The notes under the pieces are model-generated. The model saw nothing but the letters and a program-made list of their open reading frames with translations. It searched no databases and was not told where the DNA came from. Source: Octopus vulgaris (taxonomy: Eukaryota). From it: a DNA stretch of 64,000 nt. The position numbers and the translations under genes were made by a program. The stretch lies in contig OX597822.1 in NCBI GenBank assembly GCA_951406725.2, positions 94,922,001 through 94,986,000 on the forward strand. The letters run 5' to 3'. Positions 488 to 35,272 of this stretch are shown piece by piece (the stretch's first letter is position 1; every line of letters begins with the position of its first letter).

Positions 488-1036
488 TCAGATTCATCTT
501 TTAGACTGATGTGGACCCTAGACTCATATTTATAGGTGACTGATCACTTGTGCTATGAATTTGTCTAAGATGAAGATTTGCATCTTGTCAACTCCTCCCT
601 CTCTCTCATATCCGTGACTATCTTCAATCCAGAAGCAAGACCAGACGTCTGGGAATGGTGACAGATGTACTCAATGGCTGAGATAATCTTACCTCATCTT
701 GCTCTCTGCACTCCAGAATGTCACTTCCCCTTCCGTTGAACCATGAAGGTTTCTTCCACAGACACCGCCAAATCCAATATTCAGATGTTGCCGGATTAGG
801 AGGATTGTGGAACTAACTCTTAGACACGGTTGATCCGAGTTCAATTGTAATGCGTCATAGCAGCACCTGACAACGTTTCAGCTTTGGGTTAATTACCCTA
901 TTATTAGAATTTACTTGCCTGTGCATCTCAATATTGGATTTGCCGGTGTCTGTGGAAGAAACCATCATGATTCAACGGAAGAGGAAGTGACATTCTGGAG
1001 TGCAGAGAGCAGCAAGATGAGGTAAGATTATCTCAG
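488..1036 (-). mobile_element. Fold-back Penelope-like relic in (AT)n; copies also at ~3304-3852 and ~6550-7103
   Basis: Inverted arms ~679-781 / ~930-1036, plus a ~190-bp unpaired tail abutting (AT)n. The minus strand of the loop has GAAACGTTGTC (~868-878), resembling a hammerhead 3' half. Confidence 0.55.
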
Positions 1037-1614
1037 ACATCGTCTACATCATTTTAAACAATTTCACCGTCAACCTGCCATAACTGATATTGTGTGAATA
1101 CTCTAAATGTGTATGACTTTGAATATGCTTCTTTTCGGATTTATGATTTACTGAGGATATATCTGTGTGTATGAATGTATGTGTGTGTATATACATATGT
1201 ATATTGTATTGGCATCCTTTCTGTCTCGGGAGACAATGGAGTTGCGCATGTTTTTTGTTTTTTTTTGTTTTCTTTTTGTAGTCTAGTCCGGCTTTTACAT
1301 TTCATGTCCTGATACATTTCCTGCTGTGGCTGTGTAGTCCTATCCTGGACAAACACATATGTATGTATATATATATATATATATATATATATATATATAT
1401 ATATATATATAGAGAGAGAGAGAGAGGGGGGGGGTTAGAGAAGGGAATGTTAGCAGACACAGATGTAAATAGCCTCTCACTTCAAAAACATAGACAATAT
1501 ACAAACAATAAAAAAAAACTAATATACAGACATGAATAAATTCATTGTAAAACTTCAGACGAAATCATAGACTCACGGAAGAGATAAACGACACAATAAA
1601 GTAAAAAAAGGTTA

Positions 1615-1706
1615 CGCCCGCAGAGGGACTTGAACCCGCACCCCTCAGATAACTTCTAAGGTTGACCTATAAAAGTCTGATTCTCTACCGACTGAGCTAT
1701 GCGGGC
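1615..1706 (-). tRNA. tRNA-Lys(UUU) with 19-nt intron, degenerate copy (likely pseudogene)
   Basis: 92-nt match to the cluster consensus. C25>A breaks the D-stem G10-C25 pair, and the variable loop reads GGGT instead of GGTC. Oligo-T terminator follows. Confidence 0.85.
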
Positions 1707-2185
1707 GGACATTTAGCAATCTCTCATATTATCTATAAAAGCAAAGTTGAAAGAACATTTCTCTTTGCATTGCACTGTCATGACTATTCATTGAGCGTCC
1801 ATTGTTTATAGCAAACTGAGGTACATAGATATAATAATGTTCAAGCGTGTCTTATGTTTCACCGATTAAATATTCCACTTAGGTAGGTTAGCTTTTTCGA
1901 AAGAAAAACTGTTCAGAACCCATCACCTCTCACAGGATTTCATACGATCTTGTCAGAGCTCAAGATAAGTGTGTGTAAAACTGTAAGTGGAGAAAACCGG
2001 AAATGTTCCCGAATTCTTGTAAAACAGTGGAAACACAAACTACGAGATGTTGATATAAATTCGTGCAACGGCTCAAACCTGACAGCCTTGTTTGTACATA
2101 TATGTATGTATATATGCATATATATATATATATATATATATATATATATATATATATATATATATATATATATATATATATATAT

Positions 2186-2378
2186 ACTAAGTAATTAAGG
2201 GTTTAGCAACGAATTGCCTCACCAACACACCGAATTTAGCAATTCGTTGCTAAACCCTTAATTACTTAGTATTACTTAAATTTTCCTCGAATGGGGCTTT
2301 TACATGCCGAAATCTACTTGGTGTAATTGATAATTATTCCAAATTGATTAATTTCACCCTTTATTATTACTGATAACT
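2186..2378 (+). mobile_element. Short fold-back element inserted in (AT)n of unit 1 only
   Basis: Inverted arms (ACTAAGTAATTAAGGGTTTAGCAACGAATTGC and its reverse complement) plus ~110-bp tail. Absent from the equivalent (AT)n of units 2 and 3. Homologue at 31771-32079. Confidence 0.75.
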
Positions 2379-32349: not shown

Positions 32350-32483
32350 AATTAAATCAAAACTGACAGCTGTTTCGGCAGTGAGGGCAGTCATACCTCA
32401 TTTAACCTCTAAGCCATAAAGGCAGGTATAAATGAGGCATTAACAAGGATGCCCCACGGCCTCTTCAGAGAATTAAATTAAAT
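32350..32483 (-). ncRNA. Type I hammerhead ribozyme, inverted copy
   Basis: Reverse complement of 34311-34444. Confidence 0.75.
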
Positions 32484-34310
32484 TTGTTATAATTGTGAAA
32501 AATATTATATAACCATATACATATAAATATAAAAATATAAAAATGTAAAATATAAAAACTTATACATCATAATGCTACACTTATATAATATAATACTCAT
32601 TGGTACAATAAAGGAAGGTAAACAGAACAAAATAAAACAAAATATATATCAGTGTATATATTAATATTAATAAGTACCGATATTATACATATTTGGCTAA
32701 TAGTTTTTTTTTAAAAAAACTAACACATAGGGAGATGAAAAATAATAATTAAAACCATGGTTCAGTTCATAAAATTCTAAAGCTATGAAAGTTAATAAAA
32801 ATTACTATTAATATTAATAATAATAATAATAATAAAAATAATAATAATAATAATAATAATAGATACAGTTAAGTTTGCACCTAAATTATCCTTCCATACA
32901 TATTTACTTTCAACAATATAACATTATATTTATTTTTTATTTTATTGTAATGTTATCAATCTCTGCATTTAGTCTTCTAATTATTTATTTATTTGCCTAT
33001 TTAAGTGTAGATGTTTACATACATATCAAGTCATCTAATTTGTTATCTATTTATTTTTTACTTATTTACTTATACTAGGGTAGTTTTATACATACATATC
33101 TATCATTTATTTTTATTTAATTTTAATAATATATGAATACATATATACTGGTTTGTACTTATAATATGTGTATAACCGTATTTATTCCTTCGTATTTATT
33201 CCTTCTTATTTATCTTATCACATTTTATCTTAAGTATTTATAATATAAATTTTTAAAAATTTATGTGATGTTCTCATAAGCGTTTACATTAGTACTTCCC
33301 CTTCTATTTTTTAATGCCTAAACTGGTATATTATGGCATTAAATTCATTAAGTAAATAAGTGATTTATTTATAATATATAAATTAATATATATTTTATAT
33401 TTTATAATTTAGCGTACTTGGAATCATAACAAACTTACGATAAATCTAACAACCGTATGTTTACTATGCAACAAACCGGTGTTATAAATTTTAAGTTACC
33501 CATGAAATAATTATCTGACTTAGTAACATACTGATATTTAAAAATATATTTATATCTAAATTAAATATTTTATGAAATGCATGGATGGTTCTTTTTCGTT
33601 ATTTGAGGCACAGTTATAATTTTGAAGGACTAAATGGTAGCATAGTTGCTTCCCTTTTTGTTTAATTATGTGCTAGTTGTTGCTTGTGATTATGTATGTG
33701 TATAAGTGTATGTATATACATATAACTATGTGTGTATGTGCGATTGATCTGTAGATGCGTGTGTGAATATTGGCGTTCCTTGACTAACCAACCGTATAAT
33801 TTTCTTTTGTGATTTAAATTTCAAACCAATAGCCAATCGAATTAATCTAAATTTTCTTTACCTAGTGGTCAGCATTTCTAAACTCATAGTTATTTCGATC
33901 TTGAAAGGATGGACTTGGTGCAAACTTAACTGTATCTATTATTATTATTATTATTATTTTTATTATTATTATTATTATTAATATTAATAGTAATTTTTAT
34001 TAACTTTCATAGCTTTAGAATTTTATGAACTGAACCATGGTTTTAATTATTATTTTTCATCTCACTATGTGTTAGTTTTTTTAAAAAAAACTATTAGCCA
34101 AATATGTATAATATCGGTACTTATTAATATTAATATATACACTGATATATATTTTGTTTTATTTTGTTCTGTTTACCTTCCTTTATTGTACCAATGAGTA
34201 TTATATTATATAAGTGTAGCATTATGATGTATAAGTTTTTATATTTTACATTTTTATATTTTTATATTTATATGTATATGGTTATATAATATTTTTCACA
34301 ATTATAACAA

Positions 34311-34444
34311 ATTTAATTTAATTCTCTGAAGAGGCCGTGGGGCATCCTTGTTAATGCCTCATTTATACCTGCCTTTATGGCTTAGAGGTTAAATGAGGTA
34401 TGACTGCCCTCACTGCCGAAACAGCTGTCAGTTTTGATTTAATT
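34311..34444 (+). ncRNA. Type I hammerhead ribozyme with 85-nt stem II domain
   Basis: CTGAAGA at 34326-34332; stem II closed by GGC/GCC and containing GTGGGGCA/TGCCCTCAC and ATGCCTCATTTA/TAAATGAGGTAT helices; GAAAC-AGCT-GTC at 34418-34429. Stem I is weak and interrupted. Confidence 0.78.
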
Positions 34445-34890
34445 GCATATTATATTTGAAATTTTTTACTTATATCTCTTTATCTTTTTACTATTACTGT
34501 ATATCTCATTTTGTATAATGCCTTTACTCATATGTAATGGTGTATTAAAGTATTGATTGGGTATCATCGGATAGTTGATGTTTTATTGATTTAAGTATGT
34601 TTCTCCATTCTCTAATTTTGTAGTATTAATTTACGGTAATATTATTACCTTTACCCATATAATACAATAGATGAACTGATTGTTTGACAATTTTTAACAT
34701 CTATGTATTAATCTTGTTGGGTACCTATCTGGCAGTATATTGGATATATATTATCCCATGGTGGGTTGAATTTTCAACCCCTATCTCATTTTATAACCTA
34801 TATATATATATATATATATATATATATATATATATATATATATATATGTATATATATATATATATATATATATGTATACATATATATATA

Positions 34891-35272
34891 TATCAAAATA
34901 AAAACATGATGCAAAGGATTTAGTGGTACATATGTTTCTGGCTTTTATTAGACAGTTTATATCAATGCATAATTGGGCTATTGACATACAAATTACATCA
35001 ATTATGCATTGATATAAACCGTCTAATAAAAGCCAGAAACATATGTACCACTAAATCCTTTGCATCATGTTTTTATTTTGATAAATATATTCTATCACCT
35101 ACACCACTAAATGGCATATACAGGTGCTTACAATTATCAAGTATTCACCCTGAATTTTTTGTACATGTATATAATCTTAATTATATTTAATTTATATAAA
35201 TTTTTTTATGTATTGGATTAAGTCTTTCTTTGTTTGATTTGCATAATAGTGGTTTTGTCTCTAATTAATATT
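34891..35272 (+). mobile_element. 5'-truncated fold-back Penelope-like element, same family as 10730-11430
   Basis: Arms 34891-34975 / 34999-35083 plus tail. Hammerhead 3' half GAAAC-ATAT-GTA at 35036-35047. Confidence 0.8.

What the first reader, a model, noticed from the sequence alone, without database searches (positions are those of the whole stretch)
488..35272. Recurrent architecture: microsatellite-embedded, ORF-less elements with an inverted 5' duplication plus an unpaired 3' tail
Seen: several distinct sequence families share this layout (488-1036 x3, 2186-2378 and 31771-32079, 18520-19230, 25200-25528, 32168-34799, 34891-35272). All touch (TA)n or similar tracts, and several carry whole or half hammerheads. 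The two copies of the 2186/31771 family start their inverted arm at almost the same base (AGTAATTAAGG) but have different inner junctions. Established: Penelope-like elements have pseudo-LTRs that can be inverted, carry hammerheads and, in some clades, target microsatellites; a PLE GIY-YIG relic is at 13081. Inference: a diverse PLE-mobilised system whose integration reproducibly generates genomic hairpins.
Basis: partly seen in the sequence, partly recalled or inferred. Interest (0 to 1): 0.75.

Follow-up and report, generated by a model that had tools for sequence, protein, structure and literature searches.

The report
Twin-primed Penelope and retrozyme insertions
These back-to-back repeats are real: five of the six families are truncated Penelope-like retrotransposons, or small ribozyme-bearing repeats that likely ride on them, showing this class's known inverted-copy-plus-tail layout, and their junctions suggest the layout is likely made by copying the RNA from both cut DNA strands at once.

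Summary
The palindromes are real but mostly a known structure: the 5'-inverted copy plus tail of Penelope-like elements (PLEs). C (18520), E (32168) and F (34885) are 3'-UTR fragments of three Hydra-clade PLE families of about 5.2-5.5 kb; E has an intact 960-codon RT+GIY-YIG frame elsewhere in the genome. B (602-nt unit) and D (354-nt unit) are RT-less hammerhead tandem repeats (retrozyme-like) with the same footprint. In these five families the inverted arm starts at a fixed second site 55-173 nt from the 3' end (published tails: 30-40 nt). Of 68 fully classed junctions, 62 pair site 1 with site 2; either arm can be longer, 7 pairs do not overlap, junctions are enriched for microhomology, and D units sit in ~12-nt target duplications. 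This favours priming from both target strands over the published fold-back idea. A (488 x3) does not fit: one old event copied by a tRNA-Lys array, with no inversion in 35 dispersed relatives. The GIY-YIG relic at 13081 is a separate Neptune-type family, parent of none. The scan noted the same system elsewhere in this genome.

The parts
488..1050 (.). Family A copy 1: arms 664-787 and 924-1050, unpaired 488-663; old non-coding SINE-like repeat with a one-off inverted duplication, not shown to be a PLE
3304..3866 (.). Family A copy 2 (same event, copied with the tRNA-Lys array unit)
6550..7119 (.). Family A copy 3 (same event, copied with the array unit)
2184..2376 (+). B1: inverted arm 2184-2243 from site 2, forward arm 2239-2376 with ~105-nt tail, (TA)n on both sides; truncated copy of the 602-nt hammerhead unit
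10722..11427 (-). Second family-F 3' fragment, without an inverted arm
11465..13530 (-). Family G: Neptune-type PLE fragment, GIY-YIG frame 13078-13440 plus its own 3' UTR and an inverted piece at its 5' end; not the parent of A-F
   Evidence: (PF01541 E 5e-5)
18520..19244 (-). C: 3'-UTR fragment of a 5.2-kb Hydra-type PLE; tail on the left (~64-72 nt), hairpin centre near 18965, an unrelated scrap at about 18770-18835
25213..25535 (-). D: truncated copy of the 354-nt hammerhead tandem unit; tail arm 25213-25389, site-2 arm 25395-25535, tail ~55 nt
31771..32080 (+). B2: inverted arm 31771-31886, forward arm 31886-32080 with tail
32168..32881 (-). E inverted arm from site 2 (173 nt before the 3' end); blunt junction at 32881/32882
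32882..34799 (+). E forward arm: last 1.9 kb of the 2.5-kb 3' UTR of a 5.5-kb Hydra-clade PLE; tail 34627-34799
34310..34445 (+). Type I hammerhead motif of E (core at 34326, long stem II, palindromic stem III, predicted cut after 34429); mirror copy in the inverted arm
   Evidence: sequence; cut position; activity untested
34885..35173 (+). F: inverted arm 34885-34975, forward arm 34976-35173 starting inside the hammerhead, tail ~72 nt; 3' end of a ~5.5-kb Hydra-type PLE
35201..35285 (+). Scrap of family C ending at C's site 2

Best explanation
B, C, D, E and F are truncated insertions with the Penelope-like inverted-copy-plus-tail layout (C, E, F from coding Hydra-clade elements; B, D from RT-less hammerhead repeats that likely borrow such an enzyme), and each hairpin likely forms when both nicked strands of the target prime reverse transcription and the two partial cDNAs are then joined. 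Shown: parents, two fixed 3' boundaries per family, variable 5' ends, microhomology at junctions, ~12-nt target duplications around D units, (TA)n preference for B, E and F. Inferred: the GIY-YIG domain makes staggered nicks; one 3'-OH starts cDNA at the RNA's distal site (site 1) and the other at a site 55-173 nt upstream (site 2); both stop early at independent points; host microhomology-type end joining links them head to head. Where the cDNAs overlap a hairpin results, and the interval between the two sites is the unpaired tail. Insertions keep or extend (TA)n, so they pile up (B2-E-F-C scrap at 31.7-35.3 kb). A is a separate old repeat with a single inverted duplication.
For: Parents: E intact 960-codon frame in L275, residues 170-500 matching 665 proteins at E<=0.001 among 2943 candidates. 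Its motifs line up by eye with the published Hydra alignment. Full-length C (L345, RT 45% identical to E) and F (L327, RT 41-45%). B and D: head-to-tail unit junction in 13 of 73 and 24 of 62 loci, type I hammerhead cores. Second start site: 20 of 27 non-terminal ends in B, 27 of 36 in E, 11 of 15 in F, 13 of 15 in D; 14 of 17 inverted arms in C, read by eye. Of 90 unique junctions 68 could be classed at both ends: 62 site1+site2, 4 site1+site1, 2 site2+site2. In the 62, the site-2 arm reaches further 5' in 32, the tail arm in 26, equal in 4, and 7 do not overlap at all. Microhomology >=2 nt in 31 of 58 clean junctions against 10.8 expected; 32 junctions carry extra bases, some locally templated. 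Target duplications >=8 nt in 8 of 10 non-microsatellite D rows against 5 of 90 control pairs. Arms of one insertion are closer to each other than to other copies in 56 of 68 events. In vitro, a Poseidon PLE cuts and extends both strands and starts at two RNA sites that bound the tail (PMC11167929).
Against: No biochemistry here; all mechanism is read from genomic end-points. Tails are 55-173 nt, not the published 30-40. Most queries contained the tail, so site2+site2 events are under-sampled, and each search scored only the 40 best of hundreds to thousands of candidates. Overlaps were defined by BLAST against one reference copy, which can inflate short microhomologies. 22 of 90 junctions could not be classed. 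No autonomous partner was identified for B or D, and D differs in target (12 of 39 site-1 ends near (TA)n, a count that includes tandem junctions, against 38 of 38 for E). Target duplications were shown only for D. A does not fit.
Confidence: 0.72

Rival explanations
1. Same elements, but the inversion arises by self-priming or fold-back of one cDNA or of an antisense template, as proposed for Adineta Penelopes (PMC3846280).
For: A few junctions are perfect palindromes (L202/L203 in E, L245/L246 and L030 in B, the window's C centre). Arms of one insertion share variants.
Against: Fold-back of the tail-bearing strand requires the inverted arm to lie within it. In 32 of 62 events it reaches further 5', in 7 the arms do not overlap, and only 4 of 62 have equal ends.
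Confidence: 0.15
2. Non-autonomous TIR DNA transposons (MITE or foldback type) inserted at TA.
For: Long inverted repeats, TA context, and target duplications around D.
Against: The tail lies outside the inverted pair and can be on either side; inner ends vary continuously; units occur in head-to-tail partial tandems; C, E and F run upstream into RT+GIY-YIG frames.
Confidence: 0.03
3. Assembly or library fold-back artefacts.
For: E and B arms are 99-100% identical; the window's B2 junction was not bridged by listed contigs.
Against: Arms differ by 4-9% in A, C, D and F; start sites are fixed across chromosomes; A's junction and other B junctions occur in short-read contigs of independent studies.
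Confidence: 0.02
4. A is also an ancient PLE-type insertion whose family has decayed.
For: It has the arm-arm-extension layout and a TA tract at one end.
Against: 0 of 35 dispersed relatives show an inverted duplication within the element, no conserved hammerhead, no PLE protein within 7 kb in 4 loci, one 165-nt end shared with other repeat families.
Confidence: 0.15

Closest known systems
Hydra-clade PLEs (Craig et al. 2021, PMC8557442; passages, sections 3, 11, 15, supplement part 2 and found passages read), including Hydra-1_Obim
   Same: C-terminal GIY-YIG without CCHH, CxCX5C linker, DKT, 3' hammerhead, (TA)n targets; one listed family carries a 5'-truncated inverted copy.
   Different: C, E and F have 5.2-5.5-kb periods with ~2.5-2.7-kb 3' UTRs (listed families 1.1-3.0 kb); E has RWR for RWK and a long Asn-rich insert; their hammerheads differ from that listed for Hydra-1_Obim; tails 64-173 nt.
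Poseidon_Ac in vitro (Frangieh et al. 2024, PMC11167929; parts 1-2 of 4 read)
   Same: Both strands cut and extended; two RT start sites define the tail; AT-rich targets.
   Different: Different clade; 30-40-nt tail; the parts I read do not analyse inverted junctions.
Adineta vaga Penelopes (Arkhipova et al. 2013, PMC3846280; passages read)
   Same: Inverted pLTR, 31-bp tail and 8-10-bp duplication around the whole unit; Asn-rich inserts; mobilisation in trans.
   Different: Explains head-to-head junctions by self-priming; the junction counts here argue for two independent cDNAs.
Metazoan non-LTR retrozymes (Cervera and de la Pena 2020, PMC7229834, passages; Li et al. 2026, 10.64898/2026.07.22.740005, part 1 of 5 and passages)
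   Same: B and D: non-coding tandem units with one type I hammerhead per unit, proposed to be moved by PLEs.
   Different: B's 602-nt unit is larger than the ~300-nt norm; the copies carry the PLE two-site and inversion footprint; D has a 2-kb form with a zinc-knuckle frame; cleavage and circles untested.
L1 twin priming (PMC2837659, search listing and start of abstract only; details recalled)
   Same: Second primer on the other target strand, inverted 5' part, duplication flanking the whole insert.
   Different: In L1 the second priming site is variable and internal (recalled); here it is fixed near the 3' end, so duplication and hairpins are the rule.

Membership tests
EN+ PLE (C, E, F) | Single ORF with RT and C-terminal GIY-YIG | tested here: met
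   E: intact 960-codon frame. C and F: both domains found by tblastn in broken copies. Pfam gave no hit on E's protein; a homologue, P0043, hit RVT_1 at 4e-5.
EN+ PLE (C, E, F) | pLTR partial tandem, inverted 5'-truncated copy, tail | tested here: met
   L091, L275, L327, L345
EN+ PLE | Tail of 30-40 nt | tested here: not met
   55-173 nt
Hydra clade (E; endonuclease motifs also seen in F) | DKT, RWK, CxCX5C linker, no CCHH, CxxC and CxH round the conserved E and N | tested here: met
   E: DKT, RWR, CNCRNKNKC, CSLC, CIH against section 11 and the published alignment. F: CNCICASDC.
Hydra clade | Canonical 3' hammerhead and (TA)n targets | tested here: met
   Motifs in C, E, F; (TA)n at 38 of 38 E and 35 of 41 F site-1 ends. 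Motif only, activity untested.
Hydra clade | Length generally under 3 kb | tested here: not met
   5.2-5.5 kb
Hydra clade | Phylogenetic placement with reference Hydra RTs | not tested
   No tree built; comparison by eye only
Non-LTR retrozyme (B, D) | Non-coding tandem unit with a type I hammerhead | tested here: met
   no PLE protein hit in 73 B loci; the only hit among 62 D loci lies in the flank of one insertion
Non-LTR retrozyme (B, D) | Self-cleavage and circular RNA | not testable with these tools
   Only contigs were available. Genomic 5' ends at the cut are seen in B only.
Neptune clade (relic at 13081) | CX2-5CxxC linker and CCHH in a C-terminal GIY-YIG | tested here: met
PLE (A) | Recurrent inversion, hammerhead, RT parent | tested here: not met
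TIR DNA transposon | Inverted repeats at both termini, constant ends | tested here: not met

The most novel reading that the evidence does not exclude
Penelope-type enzymes routinely integrate as a twin-priming machine: two reverse transcriptases, one per target strand, start at two fixed RNA sites with a near-strict one-of-each rule, and the host joins the cDNAs. Retrozymes are moved by the same machine, at least family B partly from ribozyme-cut RNA, and one of them (D) has a 2-kb form carrying its own zinc-knuckle protein. This would replace the self-priming model for PLE palindromes and tie retrozyme spread to a named enzyme class.
Probability: 0.5. Interest if true: 0.6.

Novelty: new member of a known kind. 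Interest (0 to 1): 0.38.

Why it matters
The layout itself is ordinary for PLEs. Its value is as data: how PLEs make tandem and inverted ends is named as unresolved in PMC8557442, and the published hypothesis is self-priming (PMC3846280). Hundreds of young copies with two fixed start sites allow the models to be separated, and an intact Hydra-clade frame gives an enzyme to test. The same footprint on hammerhead tandem units supports PLEs as the movers of animal retrozymes. I found no paper applying twin priming to PLE inversions in two searches of the open library; subscription papers were not searched.

Tried and rejected
Rfam found no hammerhead in the window; motifs were read by eye and with my own pattern. 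Pfam and PDB gave no hit on E's protein. I first read E as Neptune and corrected it to Hydra. Pile-up of 5' ends at the ribozyme cut: the script found 3 of 54 B arms (0.65 expected, P 0.03); two more B copies were found by eye (L015, L232). No excess in D (2 of 51), E (0 of 29) or F (1 of 48). The idea arose from the first B sample, so it is only suggestive. RT pausing at stem II as the cause of half hammerheads: borderline in B and E (P 0.07, 0.05), absent in D and F; not claimed. The relic at 13081 as parent of F: rejected. No common RNA structure at site 2 was evident. No RNA holder listed for B; no conclusion on expression. Homologue search for D's zinc-knuckle frame found nothing (lengths 160-510 only); the Atlas gave no answer. 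The site-1 pattern for C matched only 3 ends and was not used. bioRxiv supplements of the retrozyme preprint were not seen and may bear on known unit sizes.

Full report
Setting. The window lies in a 2.8-Gb, 227-contig genome with (TA)n tracts, a tRNA-Lys array and C2H2 genes. A cephalopod host is likely, by inference: the best named homologue of E's RT is from Argonauta. I label the six families A (488), B (2186, 31771), C (18520), D (25200), E (32168) and F (34891).

Observation. Masked self-BLAST recovers every hairpin, with arm identities of 91-100%. A's three copies and B1 are units of a tandem tRNA array that continues upstream. Short-read contigs from three studies bridge A's junction. 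Contigs of three runs show other B inversion joints and (TA)n at both B start sites, though no listed contig bridges the window's B2 junction. The structures are real.

Parents. Extending E upstream gave full-length units with a 5503-nt period and an intact 960-codon frame in L275. Its motifs (DKT, RWR, CxCX5C, no CCHH, CxxC, CxH) fit the Hydra clade as defined in PMC8557442 section 11, and line up by eye with the published alignment. F runs into a Hydra-type endonuclease and RT about 2.6 kb upstream. C runs into one with a 5206-nt period. The window copies of C, E and F are therefore pieces of long 3' UTRs. B is a 602-nt unit and D a 354-nt unit, each with one type I hammerhead, joined head to tail in 13 of 73 and 24 of 62 loci, with no PLE frame inside. 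They fit non-LTR retrozymes (PMC7229834). The GIY-YIG relic at 13081 (PF01541) belongs to a Neptune-type family with its own 3' UTR, unrelated to A-F.

A is the exception. Its dispersed relatives are 67-80% identical and share a fixed 165-nt end with other repeat families. None of 35 distinct dispersed loci has an inverted duplication inside the element, and the half-hammerhead is not conserved. Its 5'-3' sense is not settled. The simplest reading is one old rearrangement amplified with the array.

Ends. Each PLE-type family has two fixed 3' boundaries. This matches the known optional tail (PMC8557442), shown in vitro to be the interval between two RT start sites (PMC11167929), though the tails here are longer than 30-40 nt.

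Mechanism. Among 90 unique head-to-head junctions in B, D, E and F, 68 could be classed: 62 pair site 1 with site 2, 4 pair site 1 twice and 2 pair site 2 twice. The site-2 arm reaches further 5' in 32, the tail arm in 26, and they are equal in 4; in 7 the arms do not overlap. A fold-back of the tail strand cannot give the first or the non-overlapping class, so the self-priming proposal of PMC3846280 cannot be the main route. Clean junctions show >=2-nt microhomology in 31 of 58 (10.8 expected); 32 junctions have extra bases, some copying nearby sequence, as expected of end joining (established knowledge, recalled). Outside microsatellites the whole D unit sits in an 8-14-nt duplication (8 of 10 rows, control 5 of 90), so both arms arrive in one event. 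The best model is staggered nicks, two independently primed cDNAs and microhomology joining. This is inferred from end-points; sampling was limited to the best-scoring copies and most queries contained the tail.

Ribozyme. Most cDNAs read through the predicted cut, in line with the in vitro finding that cleavage is not needed (PMC11167929). In B, five copies start 1-2 nt after the cut; D, E and F show no such excess. Half hammerheads are simply 5' truncations through the motif.

Verdict. New members of known kinds: three long Hydra-clade families and two retrozyme-like riders, with one mis-grouped repeat. The scan's earlier notes describe the same system on other DNA of this genome and in another genome; my reading was fixed before I saw them. 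Interest is modest and rests on the junction data, which make an open mechanistic question testable.

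Noticed in passing
L161:5188-7241; also L162, L439-L443: Family D has a 2054-nt long form: the same ends and hammerhead around a ~1.7-kb insert with a broken frame holding a CX2CX4HX4C knuckle (PF00098 E 0.001, below cut-off) and no RT. Seen in 7 insertions, several with the inverted layout. No homologue found.
   Followed up: partly
L091, L093, L097 and others: The youngest E subfamily shares one frameshift in the RT-thumb region (12 rows, some the same insertion, against 2 intact rows), and a sister subfamily stops at 534 codons. 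Either these spread in trans or this is a systematic homopolymer error.
   Followed up: partly
L287 3' UTR (family G): Hammerhead-like motif with the core pair swapped to G3/C8, read by eye; G also shows two 3' boundaries about 80-100 nt apart and inverted 5' copies.
   Followed up: no
window 1614-24923: Ten tRNA-Lys(TTT)-like genes with a ~20-nt insertion in the anticodon loop, in a tandem array of ~2.8-3.2-kb units that continues upstream of the window.
   Followed up: partly
window 28512-28565: Solo type I hammerhead-like motif on the + strand, upstream of a (TG)n tract.
   Followed up: no
window 28846-29284: Element with 71-nt terminal inverted repeats (97%) and internal TAACCC repeats; related sequence at 30917-31357, 47703-48132 and 60945-61350. 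Looks like a true TIR element.
   Followed up: no
window 29310-29385: 76-nt palindrome (92%) made of two head-to-head tRNA-like SINE pieces.
   Followed up: no
window 40904-41399: Degenerate inverted repeat (78%, 134 nt) not tied to a microsatellite.
   Followed up: no
window 17368-18258 (-) and 26291-26857 (-): Frames resembling a Helitron helicase region and an RTE-type LINE RT, by recalled motifs only.
   Followed up: no
window 35941-37035 and 48402-49772: Two C2H2 zinc-finger array genes.
   Followed up: no
window 25525-25576; L136, L144: D's site-2 end often runs into (CT)n while its site-1 end runs into (TA)n; the tract may grow from the element's own end.
   Followed up: no
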